Origin: Arenicellales bacterium
GTDB lineage: Bacteria; Pseudomonadota; Gammaproteobacteria; Arenicellales; Poriferihabitantaceae
DNA length: 64,000 nt
Assembly (NCBI GenBank): GCA_965200715.1
Contig: OZ241374.1
Location: 2,917,031-2,981,030, forward strand
Direction: 5' to 3'
Under the pieces are notes generated by a model, which saw only the letters and a list, made by a program, of their open reading frames with translations, searched no databases and was not told the DNA's origin. This document shows, piece after piece, positions 3,757 to 64,000 of the stretch. Position numbers and translations under genes: made by a program. Position 1 is the first letter of the stretch, and the number at the start of each line of letters is the position of its first letter.

Positions 3757-4755
3757 TTAGAAGTCGTAACGAATGCCAATCCAGTGCTTGACTTGGTCGT
3801 CACTGCCGGCCACATCATTGTCGGTAGATCCGCCCTCATACCAGAGACGCAATCCACCGCCCATGTTGTGATACAGGCCAGCGGCAATCTTGCTGGGTTC
3901 GGCGGTTGATCCTTCGGTTTCCGACATGGAGTAGCCAAGCCATCCCGAAGTACTGTCGGAAAAGCTCATACCCACATAGCTAGTGACATACTCCTTATCG
4001 GGCTGGGCAACCCCAGAACTGTTTTCTGATTCATGTCTGCTCCATCCCAAAGATCCCCAGAATTGACCAAGCGAAACCTTGCCGGTAATCGCTGCGCGGT
4101 TATGCTCTAATCCATGTTTAGCAGTGGTGGCCGGAATGGACTTGAATGCTCCATTTTCGCTACCTGCCATTTCAGGCATTGCGGGGGTGACGACGATCTC
4201 AGTCTGATCGTCCACATCAAAGGCGGCTGCAACCGTCACATTATCCGTTGCGGCAACGCGGACACCAATACCGCCGCCATTACCGGACAGGTTGGCACCT
4301 TCACCGCCCTCATCACCGAGACGCAAATCTGCTTCTAAGGACAGCGGGCCGACTGAGTTGGAATACTTGATGGTATTGGGAGATCGAAAAGGAGTCGGAC
4401 TACCCACCGGCCCGACCGTGTAGGTTGGATCAAGATCAACCCCGACCGAGTTGTAGAAGGCACTCCACTGGTTACCGACATCAACCCGTCCGAAACCACC
4501 GGAAATCCCGGCCGTAGCAATCCGGGTAGAGGTGATACCACCGGCACCGTCATCGGTATTGGTAGCAAACTCGTAATGACCATGAGCGGTCAGACCGTTG
4601 CCCAGATCAGAACTGGCTTTGACTCCAAACCGAGAGCCAACGCCCTGGATGTCAGCCGTTGAGTCATTCGAGCCGCCCGTGTCCTCCAGGACAATTGCGT
4701 TGTTGATACGACCGTAAACAGTCGCCTCCGCCTGGGCTCCAAGCGGGATCATCAC
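3757..4755 (-). CDS. Gram-negative porin family beta-barrel (OmpC/PorB-like); 5' start unresolved
   Basis: EATVYGRINNAIV, GSRFGVKASSDLGNGLTAHGHYEF, NTIKYSNSVGPLSLEADLRL, alternating amphipathic strands, C-terminal IGIRYDF. The ORF-track start is a GVM-internal GTG that leaves only 8 aa before the AQA|E cleavage-like site. Confidence 0.85.
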   Translation of the reverse strand: MMIPLGAQAEATVYGRINNAIVLEDTGGSNDSTADIQGVGSRFGVKASSDLGNGLTAHGHYEFATNTDDGAGGITSTRIATAGISGGFGRVDVGNQWSAFYNSVGVDLDPTYTVGPVGSPTPFRSPNTIKYSNSVGPLSLEADLRLGDEGGEGANLSGNGGGIGVRVAATDNVTVAAAFDVDDQTEIVVTPAMPEMAGSENGAFKSIPATTAKHGLEHNRAAITGKVSLGQFWGSLGWSRHESENSSGVAQPDKEYVTSYVGMSFSDSTSGWLGYSMSETEGSTAEPSKIAAGLYHNMGGGLRLWYEGGSTDNDVAGSDDQVKHWIGIRYDF

Positions 4756-4779
4756 CGCGGCAGAAACGACCTCTGTCGC
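4750..4779. repeat. Invariant 26-nt porin 5' element (reverse orientation) with palindrome GGCAGA-AACGACC-TCTGTC
   Basis: CATCACCGCGGCAGAAACGACCTCTG is the reverse complement of CAGAGGTCGTTTCTGCCGCGGTGATG, which is found in all six porins. Confidence 0.9.
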
Positions 4780-7814: not shown

Positions 7815-7824
7815 GTTAATTGCT

Positions 7825-13469: not shown

Positions 13470-13679
13470 GTCAGACTCAACCTCCATTCATCCACCGAAA
13501 ATCGGTGGATGAATGCACTTGTAGTGCCACTCGATTTTTTTAATTGCAAATTATCAATAGGTTGGAACACTACATGTTAAACTTCGGTTATCTTCAATGA
13601 TAGAACTGAAATACCTTCCGATCGGCAATCATGTGGTTGTTGAGTTTTCTACGGAGGTAATGATTTCACGGCAGAGGTC

Positions 13680-13700
13680 GTTTCTGCCGCAAGCGGGTTT
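13680..13700. repeat. Orphan copy of the palindromic element (no porin attached)
   Basis: GGCAGAGGTCGTTTCTGCCGC is identical over 21 nt to the porin-linked copies. It then continues into the X flank instead of GGTGATG. Confidence 0.85.
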
Positions 13701-13882: not shown

Positions 13883-14410
13883 TTAACACAGACTTACGTA
13901 ATTTGGCCCTAAGTATTCTTCTATCTTTTCACCTTTGAGAGGCACCTCAGTGCCAGCAATTTCTGCATGCGATATGTTTTCAGAAAGTGCAGTATCGTAC
14001 ACGGCAATTGCCCGCATTCCATGATGATTAATTTCTCGGATAGTCTTAACGGAAATCTCAATAGAACCACAGTTTTTCTTTTTGTTATTTCCCTCTACTA
14101 ATTTAGTTGCCCGTAAGTTATGAGATTGCTGTGAAGTATACCCCTTTCGATCGGTAGACATGCCGTTTGTTATTCTTTGTTCAAAAAATGTGGGCTCTAT
14201 ACAACCATCAATTGACAAATAATTCTCAGAAGTAACAACTGAAAGAAGTGTTTCATGGTCATTTACAGGGCCGGGTGAGTAATCGCTTACTGAAACAAGC
14301 TCACATTCACAGCAGGGATGCTTTTTTCCTAGATCGTTCCAAAAATTTCGGCCTAACTTATTACGATTTTGAAAAAATTCTCTACATTTTGTTTCTTTAT
14401 TCTCGGTCAT
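13883..14410 (-). CDS. Hypothetical protein (module gene 2)
   Basis: 175-aa ORF that overlaps the upstream gene's 3' end by 14 nt. AT-rich. No domain recognised. Confidence 0.55.
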   Translation of the reverse strand: MTENKETKCREFFQNRNKLGRNFWNDLGKKHPCCECELVSVSDYSPGPVNDHETLLSVVTSENYLSIDGCIEPTFFEQRITNGMSTDRKGYTSQQSHNLRATKLVEGNNKKKNCGSIEISVKTIREINHHGMRAIAVYDTALSENISHAEIAGTEVPLKGEKIEEYLGPNYVSLC

Positions 14411-14867
14411 TTTGTGCCAGGAAGTTCGAAAGTACTTTCCAAACTTGACTCGTATCAGAGTTTACTACTGTTTCAAAATCTTCTTCAATCAACTGAATTT
14501 CATCACTTTCATAGTCACAGCACATTGATAATTTTCTATTTCCATTAAAATTTATTTCTGCATATCCTGCAAAATTATACCAATACAATACAACTTCTCC
14601 ATCTGGACTGGGCGCAGCACTAGTTGGTTCTTTTCCAAAAAAGCGACTCCTAAATTTATTCAAAAAATTTAACGATTGATAAATTGCTGATGATGGAATT
14701 TCCTTTGCACCATCTCCGTCCCAATTTTTTCCATAGGAAAAAAATTCTTGAATTCGTGCGTCAATCTTAGATTTTCGACCGTGTTCATCATTTGACAATA
14801 AATACGCATCTCGCATTGCATTAGAAAGCCGATCAACGCTAGCGTTCAGTTTTGAATTATCGTTCAT
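14397..14867 (-). CDS. Hypothetical protein (module gene 1) with shared leader and N-terminus
   Basis: 156-aa ORF with GGAGG SD. The first 20 codons (MNDNSKLNASVDRLSNAMRD) and about 170 nt of leader are homologous to 42399..42625. The rest is unrelated. Confidence 0.6.
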   Translation of the reverse strand: MNDNSKLNASVDRLSNAMRDAYLLSNDEHGRKSKIDARIQEFFSYGKNWDGDGAKEIPSSAIYQSLNFLNKFRSRFFGKEPTSAAPSPDGEVVLYWYNFAGYAEINFNGNRKLSMCCDYESDEIQLIEEDFETVVNSDTSQVWKVLSNFLAQNDRE

Positions 14868-15038
14868 ATCATTACCTCCATTTGTAGTCAGTATAGCGCG
14901 TCATACTGCTGAGATTTGCATGAAGAATAACGCGATAAAATACACTAATCATTTATATATTACCATTTTTTCTGGTATTTTTCATCATAACTGAACCGTA
15001 TGAATTATAAGAAGAAATAAGATGAAAATCCTTAGCGA
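14868..15038. promoter_or_regulatory. S flank module: conserved divergent leader between 14867(-) and the porin element
   Basis: Homologous to 42399..42565 (inverted). It contains a TATACT -10-like box and a GGAGG SD for the minus-strand gene. It also has ATGAAAATCC (15022) facing the porin, but in the +1 frame relative to it. Confidence 0.55.
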
Positions 15039-15064
15039 CAGAGGTCGTTTCTGCCGCGGTGATG
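15039..15064. repeat. Invariant 26-nt porin 5' element
   Basis: CAGAGGTCGTTTCTGCCGCGGTGATG, with the left arm as GACAGA. Confidence 0.9.
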
Positions 15065-15997
15065 TTGCCTATCGGGGCACAGGCGGATGTGTCCATTTAC
15101 GGGCGCATAACGAACGGAATTAAGTACGTTGATCCGGCGGAACCTGGTGCCGATTCAACGACCGATGTCCATAGCTATGGTTCACGATTTGGCTTTAAGG
15201 CCAATTCCGATCTGGGTAACGGCATGACTGCAATTGGTCATTTCGAGTTCCAAGCCAGTACCGACAATACAGGTGCCAACGCTGACGGGCTGGGGAATAT
15301 GAAAACCCGGCTTGGATATGTCGGGGTTGAAGGCGGATTCGGGAAAGTCACAATTGGCAACCAATCCGCGGCGTTTTATAACAATGTTCACTTTGATCGC
15401 AGTTTCTGGAACGGCGGACACGGAGGCTATCCGGGTAGCCGCTCTTCCAATACGATTAAGTATTCCAATGCCGTAGGGCCGTTAAGCTTTCAAGCCGACT
15501 TAAGAGTCGATGCTGCAGATGATGGAGCATATGAAGCAAATACCGAAGGTTTAGGCAAAGGCAATGGTGGAGCTTTGGGTTTACAAGCCGCATTATCCGA
15601 CAACCTGACTTTGGGATTTGGTTTTGACACTCAAGACCAGGCAGATATGACCGATGGCACGGAAACCGATGTTTTTGGCATGTCCGGGCTAGCTACCTTT
15701 GGCCAATTTGATGTTTCGCTAGCCTATGCAAACAAAGAAGTGTCTGGTGAAGAAGATACCCAGCTCATGCAGTTATGGGCCAGTGCAAGCCTAACCGATC
15801 AAACTCTTGCGCGGGTTGGATACGGGCAGGAAGATCAGGACGAAAGCGAAGCAACGCCAAGCACTCTGACCGCAGTATTGATTCACAATCTTGGAGGCGG
15901 TTTTCGAGTTTGGTATGAAGGCAATGCCACAGATGACGATGTAGCTGATATGGATACCAAAGTAACCCATGAATTTGGCTTGCGGTTTGACTTCTAA
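15059..15997 (+). CDS. Gram-negative porin family beta-barrel; 5' start unresolved
   Basis: DVSIYGRITNGIKY, GSRFGFKANSDLGNGMTAIGHFEF, NTIKYSNAVGPLSFQADLRV, C-terminal FGLRFDF. The upstream in-frame codons run into TGA without any ATG, GTG or TTG. Confidence 0.85.
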   Translation: MMLPIGAQADVSIYGRITNGIKYVDPAEPGADSTTDVHSYGSRFGFKANSDLGNGMTAIGHFEFQASTDNTGANADGLGNMKTRLGYVGVEGGFGKVTIGNQSAAFYNNVHFDRSFWNGGHGGYPGSRSSNTIKYSNAVGPLSFQADLRVDAADDGAYEANTEGLGKGNGGALGLQAALSDNLTLGFGFDTQDQADMTDGTETDVFGMSGLATFGQFDVSLAYANKEVSGEEDTQLMQLWASASLTDQTLARVGYGQEDQDESEATPSTLTAVLIHNLGGGFRVWYEGNATDDDVADMDTKVTHEFGLRFDF

Positions 15998-16026
15998 CCC
16001 CATATTGATTTAGAGGAAATTAAACA

Positions 16027-17223
16027 ATGAAACAAAATATTTTTATAGCGGCCCTATTGGCCGGTATGCTGGCACTCGCGGGTTGTGGGGGCGGAAGTAG
16101 TTCAAACAACAGCGGCGGTAATGATGACAAGACGCCACCTCCGCCACCACCGCCAACTACCACGAAAACCGCGGGCGTTCCAAATAATCTAGTAGTCCGA
16201 GGCGGTACGGCCGGACTATCGTTTAACCTTGCTACCGGTGAACTTCGGTTTATTGAAGGTTATTGGTTTAGATGTACAGGTGGAACCTGTGCCGGATCTG
16301 TGGCCGCTGGCGCACAGGTTGGCACAGTTTCTTACACTGGAACAGGGACTCTTGAGATTCTTACAAGCAACCCAACTCTGGCGGATTCAAGTACTGGTAA
16401 TATAGATCAGCCAACCGAATCTACCGATCCATTGAGTAATGATGTATTGCTTAAAGCGCTTCGAGGCACAGGTAGAGTTGCCACTGACAATACAGTTTGG
16501 AATGTCGGAGAAGGTGCTGGAACACGGCCCACTAACGGCACCACATTGCCATTTACCCCTTTAGATGGTTCGCGAATAGATCTAACGATTAGTGCGGCCG
16601 GAAGTTCCAACGACGCTTATTTTGGTCATTGGGTAAAGAGCACGGCAGACCTTACCAGCTCAGGAGATCAAGATACTCTTGTAAATCGGAACCTTGGTGA
16701 TCGAGGAACTGTATGGGGCGGGGCAATGCCTTATGGGAAAAAGCCTGACACTTCCCTAGGAACGGCCTCTTACGATGAAGATGATGCAGTATTGCTTTAT
16801 TTCAGTGGCAACGGAAGAACATGGACGAACGCTACTGGAAACCTTACTTTTAATGCCAATTTCGAAACAGGCATGGTAGGCGGAAATATCGTTGTAGTTC
16901 CCGGAGGTGCTACTGGACTTGTAGCGGCAACCGACAACATTGATCTTATGGCTACCATGATCGGAAATGATGGTAAGTTTTCTGGCTCTGCCAGCTTTAC
17001 CAACTCTAATGTTAGGCGTGATTCTGGTAGTTGGAACGGAGGGTTTTTTGGTCCTACAACAACAGTTACTGGAACACCGCCGGCAGAAGCTCATGCACCG
17101 CCAGATTTTGTAGCGGGTGCGTTTAGTGTTTCAAGGCCAGCGATCGGAACATCTACTACAGTTAGTGCAACAGCACAAAACCAGTTGCACATTCGCGGTG
17201 CATTTGGAGCAGACGACGGATAA
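16027..17223 (+). CDS. Surface lipoprotein with TbpB-like C-terminal region
   Basis: MKQNIFIAALLAGMLALAGCGGGSS lipobox, a PPPPPPP linker, C-terminal GGFFGP..AGAFSV..IRGAFGA. Starts 29 nt after the porin stop. Confidence 0.8.
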   Translation: MKQNIFIAALLAGMLALAGCGGGSSSNNSGGNDDKTPPPPPPPTTTKTAGVPNNLVVRGGTAGLSFNLATGELRFIEGYWFRCTGGTCAGSVAAGAQVGTVSYTGTGTLEILTSNPTLADSSTGNIDQPTESTDPLSNDVLLKALRGTGRVATDNTVWNVGEGAGTRPTNGTTLPFTPLDGSRIDLTISAAGSSNDAYFGHWVKSTADLTSSGDQDTLVNRNLGDRGTVWGGAMPYGKKPDTSLGTASYDEDDAVLLYFSGNGRTWTNATGNLTFNANFETGMVGGNIVVVPGGATGLVAATDNIDLMATMIGNDGKFSGSASFTNSNVRRDSGSWNGGFFGPTTTVTGTPPAEAHAPPDFVAGAFSVSRPAIGTSTTVSATAQNQLHIRGAFGADDG

Positions 17224-17234
17224 CTAACCAACCA

Positions 17235-17262
17235 AACCGGGGCGTAACAACCCCGGTTTTTT
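17235..17262 (+). terminator. Rho-independent terminator (conserved family)
   Basis: AACCGGGGCGTAACAACCCCGG followed by T6. Confidence 0.85.
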
Positions 17263-17335
17263 CTATACCGAAACCCCAAACCCATACGGCGGATCGGTTT
17301 GATCCCGTCAAGCAACTATCCCATAAGAAGAAGAA

Positions 17336-18556
17336 ATGAAACCGAAATGCTCAATAGCGATCCTGTTGACCACAATGCTAGCCTTAACAGGTTGCGGGGG
17401 TGGCGGATCGGGCAATGCTGAGCCAGGCAATGAAGCAGCACCACTAGCAAGCGTTTCCAGTACCGGAATACACCACTACGGCATTGATTCGGATGCCCGC
17501 CGGGACTACCGGCGATCCATGTATGATGACTGCGTAGCAGAGAGAGGCCGGTCGCGCTGTTCCCTATCCGGTCGTGGATGGTTTTACCGCTGGAACCAAT
17601 TGCCGAAAGTACATATTTCCTCAAACACTACACAGGAGGGAATATGGGCAATTCGGAGGACAATCGGCATCCTCAACCGTTCTCTACCTGAGGAATACCG
17701 GCTTAGTTACGAAACAACCAACCGGACATTTTCTGGTGTGGATAGGGATGACAGGACATCCCGTGTCGAGTCTCTTGTGCCGAGGGGCGTGATTCATGCG
17801 GAGATCTACCCCTATGATGACCCAGAGTTTAGCGGATGGGCTTGGACCGATGGCGAACGGGGCTATGCCCTTGGCGATGAGACCGATCTTGACCTATCCG
17901 ATCCCTTGGACATGTCCTTTGCGGTGGAGACCATGGCACATGAGTTCCTGCATGCTCTCGGGCTGGTCGCACACCCACAGGAAATCCACACGTCCATCAT
18001 GTCCTATCGCTATCACTCTGAAGGAGAAATTGAGAGAGTGCCGCTGATTGATGTTGCCATGCTCCATGACCTATACGGCTGGGGATTCTGGGATGGGGAA
18101 ATGAAAAGGGTTACCGAGCATGAGGGTGGAGTGCATTTCGGGGTAGATAACCTGCATCGAGGGACTGCCGTCATTCCATGGGTGGATGCAAGATACCTAG
18201 CGGCTCCAAGACCGAATGAATTATCAGATAGTGCATCATACGATGGAACCTTAGTCGGATATGCTACGAATGGAACTGCCCTATATGGTGACTCAGATCT
18301 CAGCATTAACTTTAATCGAGGAACGGGAGTGGCCCGTTTTCACCGGATTACAGACTGGGATGGCAATTCTTGGAATCGAAGTGGCTATCGCTATGATCTC
18401 AGTCTATATGGCCATTACTTCGATTCGACCATAGATTCACAGGATCAAGATGGTATTCTAGATGTGGTCGGGGCGTTCTATGGGTTTGAGGCAGAAACCG
18501 CAGCAGGTACACTTCAAAGACCGGAGATTACCGCCGCTTTTGGTGCGGTTAAGTAA
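17336..18556 (+). CDS. Zinc-metalloprotease lipoprotein (metzincin/serralysin-like) with TbpB-like C-terminal barrel
   Basis: 406 aa. Lipobox LALTGCGGGGS, HEFLHALGLVAHPQEIHTSIMSY (HExxH..G...H plus an SxMSY Met-turn), C-terminal ASYDGTLVGYA..DLSINFN..GVARF..VVGAFYG..AAFGAVK. Confidence 0.85.
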   Translation: MKPKCSIAILLTTMLALTGCGGGGSGNAEPGNEAAPLASVSSTGIHHYGIDSDARRDYRRSMYDDCVAERGRSRCSLSGRGWFYRWNQLPKVHISSNTTQEGIWAIRRTIGILNRSLPEEYRLSYETTNRTFSGVDRDDRTSRVESLVPRGVIHAEIYPYDDPEFSGWAWTDGERGYALGDETDLDLSDPLDMSFAVETMAHEFLHALGLVAHPQEIHTSIMSYRYHSEGEIERVPLIDVAMLHDLYGWGFWDGEMKRVTEHEGGVHFGVDNLHRGTAVIPWVDARYLAAPRPNELSDSASYDGTLVGYATNGTALYGDSDLSINFNRGTGVARFHRITDWDGNSWNRSGYRYDLSLYGHYFDSTIDSQDQDGILDVVGAFYGFEAETAAGTLQRPEITAAFGAVK

Positions 18557-19161: not shown

Positions 19162-20971
19162 TTATGGTTGCTCAACGGCTCCGAATGCGCCGCGATGTCG
19201 TATGTAGGTAAATCCTTCAGGATCAGGATCGGCTGTACTATCATTTTCGGTGGCGGTATTGAGGGTTGTATCAGTGCCATTTGGCTGATAGTCAAAATCA
19301 CCGACAATCCATCGCCCTTGATGTACAAACCTTGCGTTCCAGTCACCAGAATCTTCACTTTGACCATTGTTTATATTGCCAGAGGCCATATAGTTACTGA
19401 TAGCACCTTCCTCAAAGGCTATGGTGTCAGTTGGAATCGGATCATCGTGCCTTCCTCTACTTATGCTTCCGTTAAGAGTATTGTTATCAAAATCAGCAGT
19501 CAATGTTATCTCTCCAATCCAAGGTAAATATTGAGGATCATATACAGGATTTGTGATATCTCCGTCACTTTCTGTAATACCCACAACATCACCTCTATAG
19601 CTTGCCGTTCCAGTTTTCGCACCGAGATACTCCCTTCCGGTTGCGGGTGCGGGGTCATTACCACCAATAGCCGCACCCCCCTCAATAAGTACAGGAACGG
19701 AATCGGTATTGCCAACTATTATCCCACTATCCGAAACCCAGGCCCCAAAACCCATGCGGTCATCGTCATCAAAATCGTTGGCAGCATCATCTTTTGACTT
19801 GCCATATACGGCTATGGCGTATATATTATTACCAGTGTTCTCCGCTCCTCTACCCGGTGCTACAGAAGTCTCGCTAGTTACGCTAATCCAGCCGTGAGTA
19901 TCAACTACCGTAACTTCATGACTTGCACCGCCAAGACCAGAGGATATGTCGATTGTCCATCGGCCCATAGTACCATCACCATTATCGAAAGTAGCATCAT
20001 ACTCAATCTCGGTTGTAGGTCGGTCTGCTAGCACTTCGGGCTGTTCTGGCATCCCAGGAACGTTAGCCCTTATCGCATCGAGACGGGCGGTATAACTCAA
20101 AATAGTACCATCTCCGACCAGCAATTCGTGAGCTTCGGTGTTATCCACACCATCCGCCATGAGTGCTGTTAGTAGCGCTGCATGAAATTCTTCAATATCC
20201 GTAATATCAGTAGTCATGGGAGTTGCTCCTGACTGTTCCTGAACTTCCAGCGCAGTTTTCAGATTCATAACCGCGGTGTTCAATGTCATCTGAGGTGGAA
20301 ACGCAAGCCTTATCGCAGCGAGACGCTGGACATAAGTCATACTAGCCGGAGTACCCGCATCAGCAGCAGTATCTCCGTTCAGCAGATTTTGGGCGGTAGT
20401 ATGCTCTGGGCTACTATCTACACCAGTATCCAGATTGCCTAAGAGGTTTCGTAACATTGTACGTGCAGATACAATGTCCCCAATTTCCTTAGCTGTTGGA
20501 ATTCCATCTTCACCTTCGTCCAATGCCGTCATGAGTGCTGCGGCTGCTTTTCCCAGATCCGCCGCGCTCGTTTTAGCTGGAGGCGGTGGTGGCGGTGGTG
20601 GAGGCCCACCATTACTAGCGACCACCTGATTATCCTCACCCTTTATCTTCTCGAGGCGGCCTTCATACCCATTCAATAGCATGGTGATCTGATCGGTTTT
20701 GGTATCTACTCCGTCCGCCGCATCCTCGATGGCCTTGTCAAGTTCCCCTTTCGCTGTTTCAATGTCCGCAATCTGCTCAGACGTGGGGGTTGTTGCAGCT
20801 TCGGCCTTCTTCAATGCGGTATCTAGTTTCATGACCGCATCATCCAACTTCGTTTGGGCGGCTTGCCTAACTGATTCAGTATCGTCAAGGGTGCCGCCCC
20901 CCCCCCCCTCCGCAACCTGCCAGGGCTAACATGGCCGCCAGTAGTGCGGTTATCAAAATATTCTGTTTCAT
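19162..20971 (-). CDS. Surface lipoprotein with TbpB-like C-terminus; out of frame at a poly-G tract (putative phase-OFF)
   Basis: ATG at 20971 gives MKQNILITALLAAMLALAGCGGGGG, then 12 G put the reading frame into a TGA. The 561-aa body (19162..20847) is in the frame that 11 or 14 G would restore. C-terminus GTASYRGDVVGITE..LTADFDNNTLNGSI..GDWNARF..RHRGAFGAVE. Confidence 0.8.
20897..20908. repeat. Homopolymeric tract, 12 C on plus (12 G in the gene sense)
   Basis: Counted directly: gccg + cccccccccccc + tccgc. It lies 3 codons after the lipobox Cys. Confidence 0.95.
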
Positions 20972-22468: not shown

Positions 22469-23383
22469 TTAGAAGATGTACCGAAGTCCGATACGGTGGA
22501 TTGCCTCGTAGCTTTCCCTGAGTGCTGCATCATCGTCATCGTCGTTGACCTGTCCTTCATACCAGATTGCTAGGCCGCCGCCCATGTTGTGGAATACACC
22601 GAATGTGGTTGCGGTTGGAGTAGCCTCTCCTCCATCGTCTTCTTGGCCGTAACCAAAATGAACGGAAGTACCATCGGCAACATCTGCACCTAACCACAAA
22701 GTGGTGTAGTCAGTATCGCTAGTAGTTTTGCCCGCCGCATCGGTTTTTTCATTGTTTGTCCATCCCAGAGCACCCCAGAATTGGCCCAGACTAACCTTTC
22801 CAGAAACACCAATCCAATCGCTATCTTTGCTTTCATGCTCGGACATTTCAGCAGCAAATCCTAGTTCAATGTTGTCCGTCAATGACGCTTTGAGGCCAAT
22901 CGCTCCACCATTGCCTGCTGGACCCTGGATATCTGTATCGCTATCGTTGGCTTTCAGGTCAACTTGCAAACTCAAAGGACCAACAGCATTTGCGTACTTT
23001 ATTGTGTTGGAATGCCTAGCTCCGGTAGTTCCACCGATTCCGCCTTCCCAGATGCTCTGATCCATGTGCAACGATCCCTTGAACGCTGCTCCCTGACTCC
23101 CGATCGTAACCTTGCCGAAGCCGCCGGAAAGCCCGACAAAACCAAGACGGGTTGTGTTCTTTCCTGTGGACTGATCGGCAGCAACCTGAATTTCAAGTTG
23201 AGCGTGCCCAACCAGACCGTTTCCAAGATCGCTATTGGCCTTGAATCCAAACCGTGAGCCAAGACTGTCTACATCAACTGTTGACTCTTTGTCACCTTCA
23301 TAGCTCTTGCTAACTAGCGCATTATGAACATGACCGTAAACCGTCAGTTCGCTTTCCGCTTGTACACCAAGCGGGATCATCAC
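22469..23383 (-). CDS. Gram-negative porin family beta-barrel; 5' start unresolved
   Basis: LTVYGHVHNALV, GSRFGFKANSDLGNGLVGHAQLE, NTIKYANAVGPLSLQVDLKA, C-terminal IGLRYIF. Confidence 0.85.
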   Translation of the reverse strand: MMIPLGVQAESELTVYGHVHNALVSKSYEGDKESTVDVDSLGSRFGFKANSDLGNGLVGHAQLEIQVAADQSTGKNTTRLGFVGLSGGFGKVTIGSQGAAFKGSLHMDQSIWEGGIGGTTGARHSNTIKYANAVGPLSLQVDLKANDSDTDIQGPAGNGGAIGLKASLTDNIELGFAAEMSEHESKDSDWIGVSGKVSLGQFWGALGWTNNEKTDAAGKTTSDTDYTTLWLGADVADGTSVHFGYGQEDDGGEATPTATTFGVFHNMGGGLAIWYEGQVNDDDDDAALRESYEAIHRIGLRYIF

Positions 23384-23387
23384 CGCG

Positions 23388-23413
23388 GCAGAAACGACCT
23401 CTGCAACTAATGA
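23388..23413. repeat. Invariant 26-nt porin 5' element (reverse orientation)
   Basis: CATCACCGCGGCAGAAACGACCTCTG. Confidence 0.9.
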
Positions 23414-25149: not shown

Positions 25150-26234
25150 CAGAGGTCGTTTCTGCCGCGGTGATGATCCCGCTTGGAGTTCAAGCGGATG
25201 TGACTGTTTATGGACGTATAAACAATGCAATTGAGCTTGATGATAAGGGAATGCAGCCAAACAAAGGGAAAACTGCATTGGAAGATAATGACTCAACGAC
25301 CGATGTAAGTACCATTGGATCGCGATTTGGCGTCAAAGCGAATTCCGATCTGGGCAATGGTCTGACTGCTCATGGTCATTATGAATTTGCGACCAATACC
25401 GATGACGCTGCGGGTGGAATCACGGCTACCCGTATTGCAACTGCTGGGCTTTCTGGCGGTTTCGGCAGGATTGACGTGGGCAATCAGTGGGGAGCTTTCT
25501 ACAATACGGTTGGCGTTGATATTGATCCGACCTGGTGGATTGGTCCGATTGCAGGTGCCACGCCTGGTCGCTCACCCAACACCATCAAGTATTCAAATTC
25601 GGTCGGTCCGTTGGCTTTGGAAGCGGATTTGCGATTAAGCAATTCTGCCGAAAATGTAAACGCTAAAGGCACCCCGGTGCTTTCCGGTTCGGGGGGTAGT
25701 ATTGGTGTTCGAGTTGCCGCTACTGACAATCTCACGCTTGCCGCCGCCTTTGATTTGGACGACCAGACAGATGTGGTGGTTACTCCTAAGATGGATGCAA
25801 AGTCGGGCGTTAATAAAGCGGGTACCGCACTTGCAGTCATCCCAGCAACGAAAGACGTTATGGGTCTTGAACATACACGTGCTGGCGTTTCTGGGAAGGT
25901 AACCCTTGGTCAGTTCTGGGGTGCTCTGGGATGGAGCAGCCATGAAGCCGAAAACGCAGCTGGGGTCACTCAGGCTGATAAAGAATTCGTTGCGGGCTAT
26001 GTGGGCATGAGTTTTAGCGACAGTAGTTCGGGCTGGATTGGCTATTCGCAGTCTGAAGAAGATAAGCCGAACACCCCGGAGCCAAGCAAGATTACGGCTG
26101 GCTTATATCACAACCTAGGCGGTGGTTTGCAGTTCTGGTATGAGGGTGCATCCGTAGATCCAGATGAAACGATTAATGGCCGTGAGGCAGACAACCATGT
26201 GACTCATTACATCGGCATTCGCTACGACTTCTAA
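25146..26234 (+). CDS. Gram-negative porin family beta-barrel; only a GTG start with an atypical signal peptide
   Basis: MAEVVSAAVMIPLGVQA|DVTVYGRINNAIE, GSRFGVKANSDLGNGLTAHGHYEF, NTIKYSNSVGPLALEADLRL, C-terminal IGIRYDF. There is no SD and no basic n-region. Confidence 0.85.
   Translation: MAEVVSAAVMIPLGVQADVTVYGRINNAIELDDKGMQPNKGKTALEDNDSTTDVSTIGSRFGVKANSDLGNGLTAHGHYEFATNTDDAAGGITATRIATAGLSGGFGRIDVGNQWGAFYNTVGVDIDPTWWIGPIAGATPGRSPNTIKYSNSVGPLALEADLRLSNSAENVNAKGTPVLSGSGGSIGVRVAATDNLTLAAAFDLDDQTDVVVTPKMDAKSGVNKAGTALAVIPATKDVMGLEHTRAGVSGKVTLGQFWGALGWSSHEAENAAGVTQADKEFVAGYVGMSFSDSSSGWIGYSQSEEDKPNTPEPSKITAGLYHNLGGGLQFWYEGASVDPDETINGREADNHVTHYIGIRYDF
25150..25175. repeat. Invariant 26-nt porin 5' element
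   Basis: CAGAGGTCGTTTCTGCCGCGGTGATG, preceded by GG, which gives a perfect GGCAGA/TCTGCC palindrome. Confidence 0.9.
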
Positions 26235-32781: not shown

Positions 32782-33789
32782 TTAGAAGTCGTAACGGATA
32801 CCGATGAAGTGCTTAACATGATCATCTGTACCGGCTTTATCTTTATCCTCGGATCCGCCCTCATACCAGAAAATCAGTCCTCCACCCATATTGTGATACA
32901 GGCCCGCGGCAATCTTGCTCGGCTCGGCCATATCATTTTCGGTTTCGGCGGTTGAGTAGCCAATCCAACCCGAAGTGCTATCCGAAAAGCTCATGCCTAC
33001 ATAGCCTGCAACATGTTCCTGGTCGGGCTGGGCAACTCCAGAGCTGTTTTCCGATTCATGTCTGCTCCATCCGAGTGCTCCCCAGAACTGGCCAAACGAA
33101 ACCTTGCCGGTAATCGCAGCACGGTTGTGTTCGAGACCATTCTCTTCTTTTCCATCTTCTTTCACTGATCCATCCAGATTCCAGGTCGGTTGAGTGGTGT
33201 ATTTGATGTCGGTCTGATCGTCGACATCAAAAGCCGCCGCAACCGTAACATTGTCAGTTGCATTAACTCGGATGCCAATGCCACCGCCGTTGCCGGATAG
33301 GCTCGTGCCTTCACCACCCTCATCACCAAAACGCAAGTCTGCTTCTAAGGACAGCGGGCCGACTGAATTCGAGTACTTGATGGTATTAGGAGATCGGAAC
33401 GGAGTCGGACTACCCACTGGCCCGATGGTATAGGTCGGATCAAGGTCTACCCCGACCGAGTTATAAAAGGCACTCCACTGATTACCGACATCAACCCGAC
33501 CAAAACCACCGGAAACCCCGGCGGTTGCAATCCGGGTTGAAAGGACTCCGTCCGCACCGTCATCGGTATTGGTCGCAAACTCGTAATGGCCATGAGCGGT
33601 CAAGCCATTGCCAAGATCCGATTCTCCCTTAATACCAAAACGCGATCCAACGGTGCCGATGTCGGCTGTTGAGTCATTCATACCGCCCTTATCTTCCAGA
33701 ACGATCGCATTATTAACACGACCGTAAACAGTCGCCTCCGCCTGTACTCCAAGCGGCAACATCACCGCGGCAGAAACGACCTCTGCCAC
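32782..33789 (-). CDS. Gram-negative porin family beta-barrel; only a GTG start with an atypical signal peptide
   Basis: MAEVVSAAVMLPLGVQA|EATVYGRVNNAIV, GSRFGIKGESDLGNGLTAHGHYEF, C-terminal IGIRYDF. Confidence 0.85.
   Translation of the reverse strand: MAEVVSAAVMLPLGVQAEATVYGRVNNAIVLEDKGGMNDSTADIGTVGSRFGIKGESDLGNGLTAHGHYEFATNTDDGADGVLSTRIATAGVSGGFGRVDVGNQWSAFYNSVGVDLDPTYTIGPVGSPTPFRSPNTIKYSNSVGPLSLEADLRFGDEGGEGTSLSGNGGGIGIRVNATDNVTVAAAFDVDDQTDIKYTTQPTWNLDGSVKEDGKEENGLEHNRAAITGKVSFGQFWGALGWSRHESENSSGVAQPDQEHVAGYVGMSFSDSTSGWIGYSTAETENDMAEPSKIAAGLYHNMGGGLIFWYEGGSEDKDKAGTDDHVKHFIGIRYDF
33760..33785. repeat. Invariant 26-nt porin 5' element (reverse orientation)
   Basis: CATCACCGCGGCAGAAACGACCTCTG followed by CC, which gives a perfect palindrome. 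Confidence 0.9.
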
Positions 33790-54881: not shown

Positions 54882-54907
54882 CAGAGGTCGTTTCTGCCGC
54901 GGTGATG
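54882..54907. repeat. Invariant 26-nt porin 5' element
   Basis: CAGAGGTCGTTTCTGCCGCGGTGATG. Confidence 0.9.
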
Positions 54908-61890: not shown

Positions 61891-63111
61891 TTACTTAACC
61901 GCACCGAAAGCGGCGGTAATCTCTGGTCTTTGGAGTGTACCGGCTGCGGTTTCTGCTTCAAACCCATAGAACGCCCCGACCACATCCGGGATCCCGTCCC
62001 GATCCTGTGAATCTATGGTCGAATCGAAGTAATGGCCATATAAGTCGAGATCATAGCGATAGCCACTCCGATTCCAAGAATTGCCATCCCAGTCCGCAAT
62101 CCGGTGAAAACGGGCTACTCCCGTTCCTTGATTAAAGTTAATGCTGAGATCTGCGTCACCATATAGGGCAGTTCCATTCGTAGCATATCCGACTAAGGTT
62201 CCATCGTATGATGCACTGCCTGATAGTTCATTCGGTCTTGGAGCCGCTAGGTATGTTGCATCCACCCACGGAATGACGGCAGTCCCTCGATGCAGGTTGT
62301 CTACCCCGAAATGCACTCCACCCTCATGCTCGGTAACCCTTTTCATTTCCCCATCCCAGAATCCCCAGCCGTAGAGGTCATGGAGCATGGCCACATCAAT
62401 CAGCGGCACTCTCTCAATTTCTCCTTTCAGATAGTAGCGATAGGACATGATGGACGTGTGGATTTCCTGTGGGTGTGCGACCAGCCCGAGAGCGTGCAGA
62501 AATTCATGTACCATGGTCTCCACCGCAAAGGACATGTCCAAGGGATCGGATAGGTCAAGATCGGTCTCATCGCCAAGGGCATAGCCCCGTTCGCCATCGG
62601 TCCAAGCCCATCCGCTAAACTCTGGGTCATCATAGGGGTAGATCTCCGCATGAATCACGCCCCTCGGTACAAGAGACTCGACACGGGATGTCCAGTCATC
62701 CCTATCCACACCAGAAAATGTCCGGTTGGTTGTTTCGTAGCCAAGCCGGTATTCCTCAGGTAGGGAACGGTTGAGGATGCCGAGTGTTCTCCGAATTGCC
62801 CATGTTCCCGCCTGTGCAGTATTTGAAGAAATATGTACTTTCGGCAATTGGTTCCAGCGATAAAACCATCCACGACCGGATAGGGAACAGCGTGACCGAC
62901 CACTCTCTGTTACGCAGTCATCATACATGGCTCGCCGGTAGTCCTGGCGGGCATCCGAATCAATGCCGTAGTGGTGTATTCCGGTACTAGAAACGCCTGC
63001 CAGCGGTGCTGCTTCATTGCCTGGTTCTGCATTGCCCGTTCCACCGCCTCCGCAGCCTACAAGGGTTAGCATTGTGGCCAACAGGATCGCTATTGAGCAT
63101 TTCGGTTTCAT
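61891..63111 (-). CDS. Zinc-metalloprotease lipoprotein (metzincin/serralysin-like) with TbpB-like C-terminal barrel
   Basis: 406 aa, about 94 percent identical by eye to 17336..18556. Lipobox LTLVGCGGGGT, HEFLHALGLVAHPQEIHTSIMSY, ..AAFGAVK. Confidence 0.85.
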   Translation of the reverse strand: MKPKCSIAILLATMLTLVGCGGGGTGNAEPGNEAAPLAGVSSTGIHHYGIDSDARQDYRRAMYDDCVTESGRSRCSLSGRGWFYRWNQLPKVHISSNTAQAGTWAIRRTLGILNRSLPEEYRLGYETTNRTFSGVDRDDWTSRVESLVPRGVIHAEIYPYDDPEFSGWAWTDGERGYALGDETDLDLSDPLDMSFAVETMVHEFLHALGLVAHPQEIHTSIMSYRYYLKGEIERVPLIDVAMLHDLYGWGFWDGEMKRVTEHEGGVHFGVDNLHRGTAVIPWVDATYLAAPRPNELSGSASYDGTLVGYATNGTALYGDADLSINFNQGTGVARFHRIADWDGNSWNRSGYRYDLDLYGHYFDSTIDSQDRDGIPDVVGAFYGFEAETAAGTLQRPEITAAFGAVK

Positions 63112-63526
63112 TGTCGCGATCAGTGCTTCGTCATGGAAAGGCGTGAAGTTCCGTTTAGCGGCGTGGTTACGGGTTCAAGATGCTATGTTGTTTATTAAAA
63201 TATGGGTTGTGTTCATCGTTGTATATTGGCTCTAACTCTTCAATCAATTCTTTTTCAATTTTTTTCTACGTTTAGAAGAGACGCTACAAGAGACCGAAAC
63301 AACCCTAAATTGGCTCAATAAATCACTAACTTTTTCATAGCAAATAGGAGCTATTTTTTCAACTTTCATGATATTTAGCCTAAGTGAACTACCTAAATCA
63401 TTTACTTGAACCTCTATCCTTTCGGCCATATCTCCGCTTTCTCCTACGTATACGACCTCGTTATTATGGAAAAATGCATCGTATATTTTTTTGTAGATTT
63501 ATCCATTGGCATCTACCTTAAAAAAA

Positions 63527-63546
63527 CCGGGGTTGTTACGCCCCGG
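63527..63546 (-). terminator. Rho-independent terminator (conserved family)
   Basis: Minus strand: CCGGGGCGTAACAACCCCGG followed by T7, downstream of the partial gene's stop at 63612. Confidence 0.8.
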
Positions 63547-63611
63547 TATATTGATTAGGGCAATCAGGGCAACCGAGGCCGCCCCTTTGATTGCAATTTT
63601 AAGAGATCCGA

Positions 63612-64000
63612 TTAGTTCTGCTTGGTACAGTTACCACCGCGACATTCAGTACCAAATGCACCGGTTGCGTGTCCATCATCAAATGAATCTTGGAACGTGC
63701 CAACTAAACCATACGGCGCATAACCATGTCCGTTTGACTGTCTTGTTGCGGCAACCTGACCTTGGAATTGGCCATGGAAACTGGCATCGGTGTTGGTAAC
63801 ACTTCCATTATCCTCAATTGATAGTGGTTTGGCAGCAGTGCCTGCATTAACTGTCCAGTCTCCAGGGCCATCGCCAGCACCAGTACCCGCTATCCTTGCA
63901 AAATTGCTAATCGTTCCATAAACAGTATCGCTAGTAGTGCCAAATTTCGCCGTGAAATTTGCATTGGCAGTAAACTCACCGTATCCAGTTGGAACATTAT
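63612..64000 (-). CDS. C-terminal part of another TbpB-like surface lipoprotein; 5' end off-window
   Basis: Not in the ORF track because no start lies in the window. My translation of the minus strand: ..GEFTANANFTAKFG..VYGTISNFARIAG..GDWTVNAG..FHGQFQGQVA..GLVGTFQDSFDDGHATGAFGTECRGGNCTKQN, then the stop. Confidence 0.7.
   Translation of the reverse strand, partial: NVPTGYGEFTANANFTAKFGTTSDTVYGTISNFARIAGTGAGDGPGDWTVNAGTAAKPLSIEDNGSVTNTDASFHGQFQGQVAATRQSNGHGYAPYGLVGTFQDSFDDGHATGAFGTECRGGNCTKQN

What the first reader, a model, noticed from the sequence alone, without database searches (positions are those of the whole stretch)
15059..18556. Iterated porin, TbpB-like surface lipoprotein and metzincin-lipoprotein cassettes: a possible porin-coupled surface-lipoprotein system
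The same gene order recurs seven times:
- 4755 to 1 (-)
- 15059 to 18556 (+)
- 23383 to 19162 (-)
- 25146 to 31049 (+)
- 33789 to 31227 (-)
- 54902 to 61236 (+)
- a partial cassette entering at 64000 (-)

Each lipoprotein gene starts 26-30 nt after a porin-family gene, behind its own SD sequence. Each ends in a roughly 150-aa region whose motif spacing matches the 8-stranded barrels of TbpB, HpuA and fHbp (GTATYxGxAxGxY, F.A.A.L.A.F, L.G.I..F, G.W.G, GAFGA). In known systems such lipoproteins pair with TonB-dependent receptors and need Slam (DUF560) for surface display. Neither partner is present anywhere in these 64 kb. The invariant neighbour is instead a general-porin-type barrel. A dedicated porin and surface-lipoprotein pairing, multiplied into a large paralog family, is not something I recognise as described.
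Basis: partly seen in the sequence, partly recalled or inferred. Interest (0 to 1): 0.8.

Follow-up and report, generated by a model that had tools for sequence, protein, structure and literature searches.

The report
Silent porin–lipoprotein cassettes for surface switching
The repeated porin-plus-lipoprotein gene sets are real, but every porin copy here lacks its start and begins at the same 26-base sequence at which copies are swapped between closely related strains, so the region is most likely a store of silent cassettes that a sponge-associated bacterium recombines behind one expression site to change its surface.

Summary
Seven porin, TbpB-like lipoprotein and (in four cassettes) metzincin-lipoprotein cassettes lie in alternating orientation.

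All six porin genes in the window lack a start codon and the first 8 codons of the signal peptide. Each begins at an invariant 26-nt block, CAGAGGTCGTTTCTGCCGCGGTGATG. A seventh, orphan 19-nt copy lies at 13672-13690.

The only complete 5' end (SD, ATG, MKKSLVAA) fused to the same core is on another contig of this species, L010, not in the window.

In eight other assemblies whose flanks match the window at 97.5-100% identity, or closely resemble one of its flanks, four flanks are joined to different partners. In the junctions aligned base by base, the crossover lies inside the block.

This is a recombination-driven, shufflon-like variation system. It resembles Dichelobacter Omp1, Bacteroides SusC/SusD and Mycoplasma vsa. 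Its unit is a porin plus a surface lipoprotein. The recombinase was not found, and switching within one population is not shown.

The lipoproteins do carry TbpB/fHbp/NHBA-type 8-stranded barrels. In distant genomes, homologous porin-lipoprotein pairs sit next to Slam genes. The system is therefore probably Slam-dependent, not Slam-free.

Verdict: a new variant of a known kind; interest 0.62.

The parts
15039..15064 (+). Recombination block S2 (CAGAGGTCGTTTCTGCCGCGGTGATG) at the 5' end of porin body B2, which is the cassette of the finding
   Evidence: It is one of six exact copies, with 0 expected by chance. Homology among the copies starts abruptly here. The left flank F2 is joined to a different porin body in L007 and L008.
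14990..15038 (+). Flank F2: a decayed, out-of-frame remnant of a gene start (aagATGAAAATCCTTAGCGA). It is not a working start.
   Evidence: ATG-A4-TCC puts the ATG out of frame, with an in-frame TGA. The same A4 run is present in three other assemblies, L007-L009. It has no similarity to the conserved upstream region of the expression site.
15039..15997 (+). Porin body B2 (Porin_4), silent: it lacks the start codon and the first 8 codons of the signal peptide
   Evidence: Pfam Porin_4 E 1.2e-29. In-frame stop upstream.
16027..17223 (+). Class-A surface lipoprotein of cassette C2 (lipobox LAGC, Gly/Ser/Pro linker, C-terminal TbpB-like barrel)
   Evidence: TbpB_B_D E 8.9e-06, 26.7 bits against a cut-off of 26, on the C-terminal 190 aa. 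C-terminal motifs are shared with all paralogs.
17237..17261 (+). Conserved intrinsic-terminator hairpin CCGGGGCGTAACAACCCCGG + T-run, which ends the porin and lipoprotein-A unit
   Evidence: Eight copies lie after lipoprotein genes: 1171-, 17237+, 21043-, 27784+, 29772+, 31181-, 61254+, 63522-.
17336..18556 (+). Metzincin-motif lipoprotein with a C-terminal Slam-type barrel
   Evidence: HEFLHALGLVAHP and SIMSY. H202, E203, H206, G209 and H213 are invariant in the 51 aligned sequences. AF2 pLDDT 83. The C-domain matches NHBA 6cuj_A, E 1.6e-07, TMt 0.70.
4750..4775 (-). Recombination block S1 at porin body B1 (3757-4775, -), followed by lipoprotein 1215-3728 (-) and a metzincin lipoprotein from about 1149 to <1 (-)
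   Evidence: Flank F1 is joined to body B3 in L004-L006, with the crossover inside the block. B1 is joined to an F6-like flank in L016.
13672..13690 (+). Orphan 19-nt copy of the block (CAGAGGTCGTTTCTGCCGC) with no porin to its right
   Evidence: Its left flank F8 is joined to porin bodies in L004, L005 and L023. Its right side is joined to another flank in L007 and L008.
23378..23403 (-). Recombination block S3 at porin body B3 (22469-23403, -), followed by lipoprotein 21084-22439 (-) and class-B lipoprotein 19162 to about 20970 (-), which has a G12 tract
25150..25175 (+). Recombination block S4 at porin body B4 (25150-26234), followed by lipoproteins 26261-27769 and 27940-29709 and the metzincin pseudogene at about 29830-31049
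33760..33785 (-). Recombination block S5 at porin body B5 (32782-33785, -), followed by lipoprotein 31227-32750 (-)
   Evidence: Flank F5 is joined to a different body in L023.
54882..54907 (+). Recombination block S6 at porin body B6 (54882-55921). Its lipoprotein A (55949 to about 56180 plus 58514-59671) is split by an IS at 56183-58531. Class-B lipoprotein follows at 59791-61236.
   Evidence: The start of body B6 is joined to flank F8 in L004.
61891..64000 (-). Partial cassette C7: lipoprotein C-terminus 63612-64000, terminator 63522-63546, small ORF, metzincin lipoprotein 61891-63111
15950..16095 (+). Second conserved DNA block (porin 3' end, SD AAGAGGAA, lipoprotein signal peptide), about 90 nt nearly identical in all six cassettes. 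It is a second exchange point.
   Evidence: Alignment A7. Homology breaks here in L016 against the window and in L003 against L002.

Best explanation
The window holds part of a large array of silent cassettes for a recombination-driven surface-variation system. The host is a sponge-associated gammaproteobacterium related to Candidatus Poriferihabitans.

**The cassette unit**
- A porin body lacking the first 8 codons, a TbpB-like surface lipoprotein 26-31 nt downstream, and a conserved terminator.
- One or two further lipoprotein genes, including a metzincin type, often follow.

**The expression site**
- There is a single type of expression site. It lies outside the window and was seen on contig L010.
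- It supplies the upstream region, the SD (GAGGA) and ATG AAA AAA TCC TTA GTG GCT GCG (MKKSLVAA).
- It is fused to the same core, GGTCGTTTCTGCCGC.

**The switch**
- Recombination within this 15-26-bp core places a different cassette behind the expression site.
- The core has a 6-7-6 dyad, GGCAGA|GGTCGTT|TCTGCC, in most silent copies.
- Recombination most likely proceeds by inversions between oppositely oriented copies.
- The cell then exports a new porin together with a new surface lipoprotein. The other cassettes stay silent because they have no start and no usable signal peptide.
- A second conserved block of about 90 nt at the porin-lipoprotein junction lets porin and lipoprotein modules reassort.

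**Shown**
- Truncated starts and the invariant block.
- The expression-site sequence.
- Exchange of partners at the block between assemblies.
- The barrel fold of the lipoproteins.

**Inferred**
- A dedicated site-specific recombinase acts, and exchange is by inversion rather than conversion.
- Only the copy linked to the expression site is expressed.
- Slam encoded elsewhere displays the lipoproteins.
- The benefit is escape from phages or from host recognition.
For: **1. Truncated starts**
- All six porin reading frames have in-frame stops 5-10 codons upstream of the conserved ...EVVSAAVM.
- The listed starts give 'signal peptides' of only 9-17 residues without a positive N-region.

**2. Invariant block**
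- A 26-nt block is 100% identical in 6 of 6 copies.
- Mean pairwise identity is 23-44% immediately upstream and at most 76% in any 30-nt window of the coding region.
- A seventh, 19-nt copy stands alone.

**3. Expression site**
- L010 carries GAGGA-N7-ATGAAAAAATCCTTAGTGGCTGCG|GTCGTTTCTGCCGCGGTGATG.
- About 200 nt upstream of it is conserved with the Ca. Poriferihabitans expression site in L002.
- That sequence is absent from the window.

**4. Homologs**
- Among the 120 best porin homologs, 8 start MKKSL/MKKHL and 54 are 5'-truncated.
- In the 3.2-Mb genome, one full-length porin (P0005) and two truncated ones (P0007, P0027) are listed.

**5. Partner exchange.** Flanks are 97.5-100% identical to the window.
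- F1 is joined to B1 in the window and to B3 in L004-L006.
- F2 is joined to B2 in the window and to another body in L007 and L008.
- F8 is joined to the orphan segment in the window, to B6 in L004, to another body in L005, and to a 406-aa porin in L023.
- F5 is joined to B5 in the window and to P0044 in L023.
- B1 is joined to an F6-like flank in L016.
- Alignments put the crossover inside the block.

**6. Site anatomy**
- Within a genome all copies share the 7-bp centre.
- Between species the centre differs (GGTCGTT against GGCAGTG), while the arms CAGA and TCTGCCGCGGTGATG are the same.
- CAGAG is invariant in every silent flank examined, although it is non-coding there.

**7. Layout and coding state**
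- Cassettes alternate in orientation: head-to-head flanks and tail-to-tail bodies.
- All six silent porin bodies are intact ORFs of 304-362 codons despite deep divergence.

**8. Precedents**
- Omp1 of Dichelobacter nodosus (PMC4196234).
- SusC/SusD shufflons driven by Tsr0667 (PMC4747536; PMC9881135).
Against: - No invertase or other plausible dedicated recombinase lies next to the cassettes. The only tyrosine recombinases are a three-gene trio at 46883-50433, which looks like a separate mobile element inserted in a transposase gene.
- All rearrangements were seen between assemblies from different samples or contigs, not within one clonal population. The rate of switching is unknown.
- In sample ERZ25070844, three contigs carry the same porin at the expression site. 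Switching is therefore not so fast that every strain differs.
- Exchange at the second, about 90-nt block looks more like ordinary homologous recombination or conversion.
- Several downstream genes in the cassettes are broken, which shows some decay.
- The expression site was found on a 4.6-kb contig from another sample. It was assigned to this species by its identical 22-nt core, not by genome-wide identity.
Confidence: 0.72

Rival explanations
1. Same silent-cassette logic, but exchange is by general (RecA-type) homologous recombination or gene conversion at short conserved sequences. Models are Campylobacter fetus sapA and Neisseria pilE/pilS. No dedicated site-specific recombinase is involved.
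For: - No recombinase was found near the cassettes.
- Each porin body is bracketed by two conserved blocks, 26-37 nt at the 5' end and about 90 nt at the 3' end. These could serve as homology arms.
- Exchanges at the 3' block are seen.
Against: - The orphan site shares only 19 nt with the others, yet it has changed partners. That is short for homology-driven exchange (my own knowledge of minimal homology lengths).
- Silent flanks exchange partners reciprocally, and no body is duplicated in the window.
- CAGAG stays invariant in the non-coding silent flanks of three genomes, while the expression site keeps CTGCG.
- The central 7 bp co-vary within a genome.
- Orientation alternates strictly.
Confidence: 0.18
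2. One reading: a multiplied family of independently expressed porin plus surface-lipoprotein operons. Each functions at the same time as a dedicated porin-coupled lipoprotein system.
For: - Porin-lipoprotein adjacency is conserved.
- In distant genomes (L014, L015) each porin does have its own full signal peptide, and several pairs coexist.
- Two copies in the window (25146, 33789) have an in-frame GTG giving MAEVVSAAVM....
Against: - In this window no copy has an SD plus a start with a positively charged N-region.
- Two copies have no start codon before VM.
- Upstream sequences are unrelated to the conserved expression-site leader.
- Partner exchange at an invariant block is not expected for ordinary paralogs.
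Confidence: 0.05
3. A decaying paralog family in a symbiont genome rich in IS elements. The missing starts are pseudogenisation, and the rearrangements are IS- or repeat-driven accidents.
For: - There are many IS elements and broken genes in the window.
- Several cassette lipoproteins are frameshifted or disrupted.
Against: - Six of six porins are cut at exactly the same nucleotide.
- All six bodies remain open for 304-362 codons.
- The same architecture is seen in Ca. Poriferihabitans genomes.
- The aligned breakpoints fall in the block, not at IS ends.
Confidence: 0.05

Closest known systems
Omp1 multiple site-specific inversion system of Dichelobacter nodosus (Moses et al. 1995, as cited in PMC4196234)
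   Same: - Variant copies of a major outer-membrane protein gene are linked.
- Site-specific inversions are proposed to give antigenic variation.
- From my own recollection of the 1995 paper, which I did not read here: one promoter and 5' coding end serves the copies through short crossover sites inside the 5' coding region.
   Different: - Four genes there, against at least 7 cassettes in 64 kb here.
- The unit here is an operon of a porin plus a Slam-type surface lipoprotein, with further lipoproteins.
- The site sequence here is unrelated to Hin/Din-type sites as I recall them.
- The recombinase here is unknown.
SusC/SusD shufflon-type multiple inversions in Bacteroides fragilis (recombinase Tsr0667; PMC4747536, PMC9881135)
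   Same: The switched unit is an outer-membrane barrel together with its surface lipoprotein. Several silent alternatives are exchanged by DNA inversion.
   Different: - There the barrel is a TonB-dependent SusC and the lipoprotein a SusD. The host is a Bacteroidota species and a known tyrosine recombinase acts.
- Here the barrel is a general porin (Porin_4) and the lipoprotein has a TbpB-like barrel. The host is a gammaproteobacterial sponge symbiont.
- 'Porin' does not occur in the systematic inversion survey PMC9881135.
Mycoplasma pulmonis vsa and M. bovis vsp lipoprotein inversion systems (own knowledge; M. bovis is cited in PMC5903667)
   Same: A single expression site carries the promoter and signal-peptide start. 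Silent genes lack the 5' end. Short sites inside the coding region mediate inversions.
   Different: Those systems switch single lipoprotein genes in wall-less bacteria, and a recombinase gene lies adjacent. Here a two-gene outer-membrane module is switched and no adjacent recombinase was seen.
Slam (DUF560/SlipAM, type XI secretion) dependent surface lipoproteins: TbpB, LbpB, HpuA, fHbp, NHBA-like, PmSLP, HphA (PMC5449769; bioRxiv 10.1101/2020.01.20.912956)
   Same: - Lipobox, flexible linker and variable N-terminal domain.
- C-terminal 8-stranded barrel.
- Slam genes lie next to homologous loci in L014 and L015.
   Different: - The conserved neighbour is a general porin instead of a TonB-dependent receptor.
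- No Slam lies within the 64 kb.
- One class carries a metzincin-motif domain.
R64 shufflon (Rci recombinase with asymmetric sfx sites; PMC11852207)
   Same: Many short sites in alternating orientation. There is a conserved core with one conserved arm and one variable arm. Segments are permuted by inversions only.
   Different: The R64 shufflon swaps the 3' ends of one pilV gene on a plasmid. Here 5'-truncated whole operons spread over tens of kb of chromosome are swapped.

Membership tests
Shufflon-type / multiple-inversion antigenic variation system | One expression site carrying the promoter, the start codon and the 5' coding end | tested here: met
   L010 carries SD-ATG-MKKSLVAA fused to the core. 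Its leader is conserved with L002. It is not in the window. That there is only one per genome is inferred from the homolog lists.
Shufflon-type / multiple-inversion antigenic variation system | Several silent alternatives that lack the 5' end | tested here: met
   Six of six porins in the window are cut at the same nucleotide and have upstream in-frame stops.
Shufflon-type / multiple-inversion antigenic variation system | A short conserved recombination site at each junction, present in both orientations | tested here: met
   There are seven copies, 4 on + and 3 on -, with 0 expected by chance. The site has a 6-7-6 dyad.
Shufflon-type / multiple-inversion antigenic variation system | Exchange of partners with breakpoints inside the site | tested here: met
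   Four flanks have at least two different partners across nine assemblies. The crossover lies within the block in alignments A2 and A3.
Shufflon-type / multiple-inversion antigenic variation system | A dedicated site-specific recombinase | tested here: not met
   No invertase was found among the window ORFs scanned. The tyrosine-recombinase trio at 46883-50433 looks like an independent mobile element. The rest of the genome could not be searched.
Shufflon-type / multiple-inversion antigenic variation system | Reversible inversion within a clonal population | not testable with these tools
   This needs raw reads. Only differences between assemblies were available.
Slam-dependent surface lipoproteins (TbpB_B_D cargo) | N-terminal lipobox | tested here: met
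   LAGC or L(T/V)GC followed by a Gly/Ser-rich linker in class-A and metzincin genes. It is broken in some class-B genes.
Slam-dependent surface lipoproteins (TbpB_B_D cargo) | [quoted passage not shown] | tested here: met
   Pfam TbpB_B_D hits 8 of 11 C-termini. AF2 gives 8 terminal strands at pLDDT 86 and 83. Foldseek hits are TbpB 4qq1_A at 3.5e-05 and NHBA 6cuj_A at 1.6e-07 with TMt 0.70.
Slam-dependent surface lipoproteins (TbpB_B_D cargo) | A Slam (PF04575) gene in the neighbourhood or the genome | tested here: inconclusive
   None is evident in the 64 kb. One is present beside homologous porin-lipoprotein pairs in L014 and L015.
Slam-dependent surface lipoproteins (TbpB_B_D cargo) | Slam-dependent surface display | not testable with these tools
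   This needs an experiment.
General porins (Pfam Porin_4 / Porin_1) | Profile match over the whole barrel | tested here: met
   Porin_4 E 1.2e-29, 4.5e-26 and 4.2e-23 for the three porins submitted.
General porins (Pfam Porin_4 / Porin_1) | A complete Sec signal peptide | tested here: not met
   It is absent from all six copies in the window. It is present only in expression-site copies elsewhere.
Metzincin metalloproteases | HExxHxxGxxH zinc motif plus a Met-turn | tested here: met
   HEFLHALGLVAHP, with invariant H202, E203, H206, G209 and H213, and then SIMSY. That this matches the serralysin-type signature is my own knowledge.
Metzincin metalloproteases | Recognisable metzincin fold or profile | tested here: inconclusive
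   No Pfam hit. The PDB profile search gives only a snake-venom metalloproteinase at E 0.17. The Foldseek list is dominated by the C-terminal barrel. The secondary structure of residues 90-250 (strands plus an active-site helix at 190-207) is compatible.
pilE/pilS-type gene conversion | Unidirectional copying from unchanged silent loci into the expression locus | tested here: inconclusive
   Silent flanks themselves change partners and no body is duplicated in the window. This fits reciprocal exchange better, but conversion at the 3' block is not excluded.

The most novel reading that the evidence does not exclude
An active chromosomal 'mega-shufflon', driven by an unidentified recombinase acting on a 15-19-bp core, swaps a complete outer-membrane module behind one expression site. 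The module is a general porin plus its Slam-displayed, TbpB-like surface lipoprotein. I found no earlier description of programmed surface variation in a sponge symbiont. The locus would also point to an undescribed, widely conserved porin, surface lipoprotein and Slam triad, in which a TonB-independent porin takes the place that TbpA-type receptors hold in the known systems.
Probability: 0.4. Interest if true: 0.8.

Novelty: new variant of a known kind. Interest (0 to 1): 0.62.

Why it matters
**Symbiosis.** If the cassettes are switched in living populations, this is a programmed surface-variation system in an animal symbiont that cannot be cultured.
- It gives a concrete, testable handle on how sponge symbionts cope with phages or with host recognition.
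- Metagenomic long reads that already exist could show the switching directly.

**Slam field.** The locus extends the known range of Slam-type surface lipoproteins.
- Their conserved partner here, and in distant Proteobacteria, is a general porin rather than a TonB-dependent receptor.
- One class carries a protease-like domain.

**Recombination tools.** The recombination site is short and well defined, and its enzyme is unknown. That may interest people who look for new recombinase tools.

**Annotation.** Gene callers report these porins as ordinary genes with wrong starts, so the silent state is invisible in current annotations.

Tried and rejected
**Searches that found nothing useful**
- Exact look-ups of window proteins (61891-63111; 15059-15997) and of P0008 and P0127, which are listed from the 2.99-Mb contig that is probably the source genome. 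All returned nothing. I therefore could not extend the window or find the expression site, Slam or a recombinase in the same genome.
- The 22-mer of the site in GTDB genomes: no match. A degenerate version found only Ca. Poriferihabitans OZ244855.1.
- Two scans of JGI metagenomes. The first gave nothing. The second gave six chance matches with no porin attached.
- Searches for a recombinase in the window. They found only IS transposases, a Mu-like transposase split by a three-recombinase element, and toxin-antitoxin or abortive-infection genes.
- Literature searches for 'Poriferihabitans' and for sponge symbiont porin antigenic variation. Neither returned a paper.

**Ideas tested and dropped**
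- F2 (ATG-A4-TCC upstream of the finding's porin) as the expression site with a sequencing error. The same A4 occurs in three other assemblies, and the upstream leader is unrelated to the true expression site.
- Differences among L001, L002 and L003 upstream of the expression site as inversions at the site. The breakpoints lie about 850 nt upstream and look like an island insertion.

**Checks that stayed weak**
- The simple sigma-70 scan found no promoter in the L010 leader. The promoter there is therefore inferred only from conservation.
- The metzincin fold could not be confirmed by Pfam or by a PDB profile.

Full report
**1. Observation**

The ORF lists and six-frame reads confirm seven cassettes in alternating orientation. 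Each starts with a porin gene. The three porins submitted to Pfam are Porin_4, E 1e-29 to 4e-23. A lipoprotein gene follows 26-31 nt later, behind AAGAGGAA.

Contents vary between cassettes:
- A second lipoprotein is present in C3, C4 and C6.
- A metzincin-motif lipoprotein is present in C1, C2, C4 and C7.
- C6 is interrupted by a Tn5-like IS (56183-58531).
- Several downstream genes are frameshifted.

Every lipoprotein ends in a region of about 170 aa with shared motifs (GTATYxG ... LTAxF ... GAFGA).

**2. The lipoproteins are TbpB-like**

- Eight of eleven C-termini match Pfam TbpB_B_D (best 1.9e-13).
- A profile of them finds factor H binding protein in the PDB at E about 1e-3.
- An AlphaFold model of 21084-22439 (122-sequence alignment, pLDDT 86) has a long helix, a beta 'handle' and exactly eight terminal strands. 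Foldseek puts TbpB 4qq1_A first (E 3.5e-05), with NHBA and HpuA following.
- The metzincin lipoprotein 17336-18556 (pLDDT 83) has a C-domain that superposes on the NHBA barrel (6cuj_A, E 1.6e-07, TMt 0.70, rmsd 3.3). TbpB, fHbp, HphA and PmSLP follow.
- Its N-domain carries HEFLHALGLVAHP and SIMSY, with the zinc-motif residues invariant across the 51 aligned sequences. No profile confirms the fold.

**3.

- In all six copies the reading frame meets a stop 5-10 codons upstream of ...(A/T)EVVSAAVM(I/L)P(L/I)G(A/V)QA.
- A DNA alignment shows unrelated sequence upstream and then an invariant block, CAGAGGTCGTTTCTGCCGCGGTGATG.
- The block occurs six times exactly, with none expected by chance.
- Mean pairwise identity is 100% in the block, 23-44% just upstream, and at most 76% in any 30-nt window of the coding region.
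- A seventh copy of only 19 nt, at 13672-13690, has no porin behind it.
- The four copies on + and three on - alternate, except that the orphan copy and S2 are both on +. The layout is head-to-head flanks and tail-to-tail cassette pairs.

**4. The missing start exists elsewhere**

- Close homologs fall into two kinds. Eight proteins start MKKSL/MKKHL-VAA(A/V)VSAAVM. Fifty-four start inside or after this peptide.
- Contig L010 was assigned to the window's species because it shares the 22-nt core. It reads aaattGAGGAaaaactaATGAAAAAATCCTTAGTGGCTGCG|GTCGTTTCTGCCGCGGTGATG.
- About 200 nt upstream of it is conserved with the corresponding site in a 3.2-Mb contig of the Ca. Poriferihabitans group (L002).
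- Neither the leader nor the start is in the window.
- The flank upstream of the finding's own porin (aagATGAAAATCCTTAGCGA) is a decayed remnant. The ATG is out of frame, and the same A4 run is found in three other assemblies.

**5. Partners are exchanged at the block**

The other assemblies have flanks 97.5-100% identical to the window. They join those flanks to different partners.

| Flank | Partner in the window | Partner elsewhere |
|---|---|---|
| F1 (4776-9214) | B1 | B3 in L004, L005, L006 |
| F2 | B2 | another body in L007, L008; L009 ends exactly at the block |
| F8 (13588-13671) | the orphan segment | B6 in L004; another body in L005; a 406-aa porin in L023 |
| F5 | B5 | P0044 in L023 |
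| F6-like | B6 (F6 itself) | B1 in L016 |

- For F1, the three-way alignment A2 switches template inside CAGAGG...CCGCTTGG.
- The right side of the orphan site has another left flank in L007 and L008.
- In L023 the F8/F1 and F5 flank segments are separated by a single cassette pair. In the window they are separated by four cassettes and two flank segments.
- The orphan site shares only 19 nt with the others, and the expression site only 22 nt. The region common to all is therefore 15 nt, GGTCGTTTCTGCCGC.

**6. Anatomy of the site**

- Most silent copies read GGCAGA|GGTCGTT|TCTGCC, a 6-7-6 dyad.
- In Ca. Poriferihabitans (L002, L011-L013, OZ244855.1) the arms are the same but the centre is GGCAGTG. 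All copies within a genome share their centre.
- CAGAG is invariant in every silent flank examined, although it is non-coding there. The expression sites of both species have CTGCG instead.
- Conserved arms with a centre that co-varies within a genome is the pattern I know from site-specific recombinase core sites. This is an argument from general knowledge, not a test.

**7. The unit that is switched**

- A conserved hairpin terminator, CCGGGGCGTAACAACCCCGG plus a T-run, follows each class-A lipoprotein. Eight copies occur in all.
- Porin plus lipoprotein A is therefore the probable transcription unit. The later genes have their own signal peptides and ride along.
- The roughly 90 nt spanning the porin stop, the SD and the lipoprotein signal peptide are nearly identical in all cassettes.
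- Homology breaks there in L016 against the window and in L003 against L002. Porin and lipoprotein modules therefore also reassort.

**8. Slam**

- No Slam is evident in the window.
- Distant homologs of the class-A lipoprotein lie in two larger genomes (contigs of 4.7 and 5.4 Mb). There they again follow Porin_4 genes, which have full signal peptides in L014, and they sit beside PF04575 SlipAM genes.
- In L014 a Slam gene is followed by a metzincin lipoprotein.
- The porin-lipoprotein pairing is therefore old and conserved, and Slam is part of it.
- The two Slam surveys I read mention TonB-dependent receptors as partners and no porin partner.

**9. Comparison with known systems**

- The logic matches Dichelobacter nodosus Omp1 (PMC4196234).
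- It matches the Tsr0667-driven SusC/SusD shufflons of Bacteroides fragilis (PMC4747536; PMC9881135).
- It also matches, from my own knowledge, Mycoplasma vsa/vsp and the R64 shufflon.
- The differences are the cargo (a general porin plus a Slam-type lipoprotein), the size of the array, the host, and the unknown enzyme.
- The window's tyrosine recombinases form a trio inserted in a Mu-like transposase gene and are probably a separate element.

**10. Limits**

- I could not reach the rest of the source genome.
- The number of expression sites, the Slam gene and the recombinase therefore remain open.
- All rearrangements are between assemblies, not within a clone.
- Inversion, as opposed to conversion, is inferred from the alternating orientation, the reciprocal exchange of silent flanks and the absence of duplicated bodies.

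**11. Verdict**

The barrels and the pairing hold, but the Slam-free reading does not, and the silent state was missed.
- Best explanation: a silent-cassette array of a recombination-driven porin plus surface-lipoprotein variation system (confidence 0.72).
- It is a new variant of a known kind. Interest 0.62.

Noticed in passing
window 20905-20960 (-), start of class-B lipoprotein 19162-20847: A run of 12 G follows directly after the lipobox Cys codon (GGTTGCGGAG12C). It puts the signal peptide out of frame with the body, and G11 would restore the frame. This looks like a slipped-strand on/off tract, but it could also be a homopolymer error from long-read sequencing.
   Followed up: partly
window 13672-15038: A 1.35-kb segment carries two small genes of unknown function (13883-14410 and 14397-14867, both on -). 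It is bounded by two copies of the recombination core in direct orientation, so it could excise as a circle. Homologs of the two genes (81% DNA identity) also lie in a flank segment of L002.
   Followed up: partly
window 45989-51082: Three tandem tyrosine recombinase genes (46883-47872, 47865-48848, 48772-50433, all on -) sit between the N-terminal (50570-51082, HTH_32) and C-terminal (45989-46786, rve/Mu-transposase) parts of a transposase gene. A TniB-like ATPase and a DUF3991/Toprim gene lie next to them. This looks like a recombinase-trio element inserted into a Mu/Tn7-like transposon.
   Followed up: partly
window 51776-54124 (-), 56183-58531 (-), 9308-10393 (+): Two 782-aa Tn5-like transposases carry an N-terminal DruA-like domain (PF14236). 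A third ORF combines DruA with DDE_Tnp_1_assoc. One copy has split the lipoprotein gene of cassette C6.
   Followed up: partly
window 9215-13587: This stretch is absent from L004, L005 and L023, where window positions 9214 and 13588 are adjacent. It holds the DruA/DDE_Tnp_1_assoc ORF (9308-10393) and a DDE_Tnp_1 transposase gene (11625-13469).
   Followed up: partly
window 24206-24874 (-), 34673-34978 (+), 36337-37641 (+): The flank segments between cassettes carry toxin-antitoxin or abortive-infection genes: SocA/Panacea antitoxin, an HTH_3 protein, DUF6088, and an AbiEii toxin split into two ORFs. The flanks in L002 and L023 likewise hold defence-type genes (GmrSD, MqsA, HigB).
   Followed up: no
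window 1171-1195 (-), 17237 (+), 21043 (-), 27784 (+), 29772 (+), 31181 (-), 61254 (+), 63522 (-): The same terminator hairpin, CCGGGGCGTAACAACCCCGG plus a T-run, is repeated eight times after lipoprotein genes. It is almost identical at the DNA level although the genes themselves are divergent.
   Followed up: partly
L014 12928-16247; L015 9815-11164 and 12739-13995: In two distant, larger genomes, porin-lipoprotein pairs lie next to Slam (PF04575) genes. In L014 a Slam gene is followed by a 596-aa metzincin lipoprotein ending in AAFGATR. This is a porin, surface lipoprotein and Slam cluster that I did not find described.
   Followed up: partly
window 59791-61236 (+) and 29830-31049 (+): The class-B lipoprotein of C6 has Ser in place of the lipobox Cys (VIAGSGGGG). 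The metzincin gene of C4 has several frameshifts. Silent cassettes thus accumulate defects in their downstream genes while the porin bodies stay intact.
   Followed up: partly
window 63111-63520 (-): A small ORF (about 60 aa, MAERIEVQVNDLGSS...KRRKKLKKN) lies between the terminator of the C7 lipoprotein and the metzincin gene. It has no counterpart in the other cassettes.
   Followed up: no
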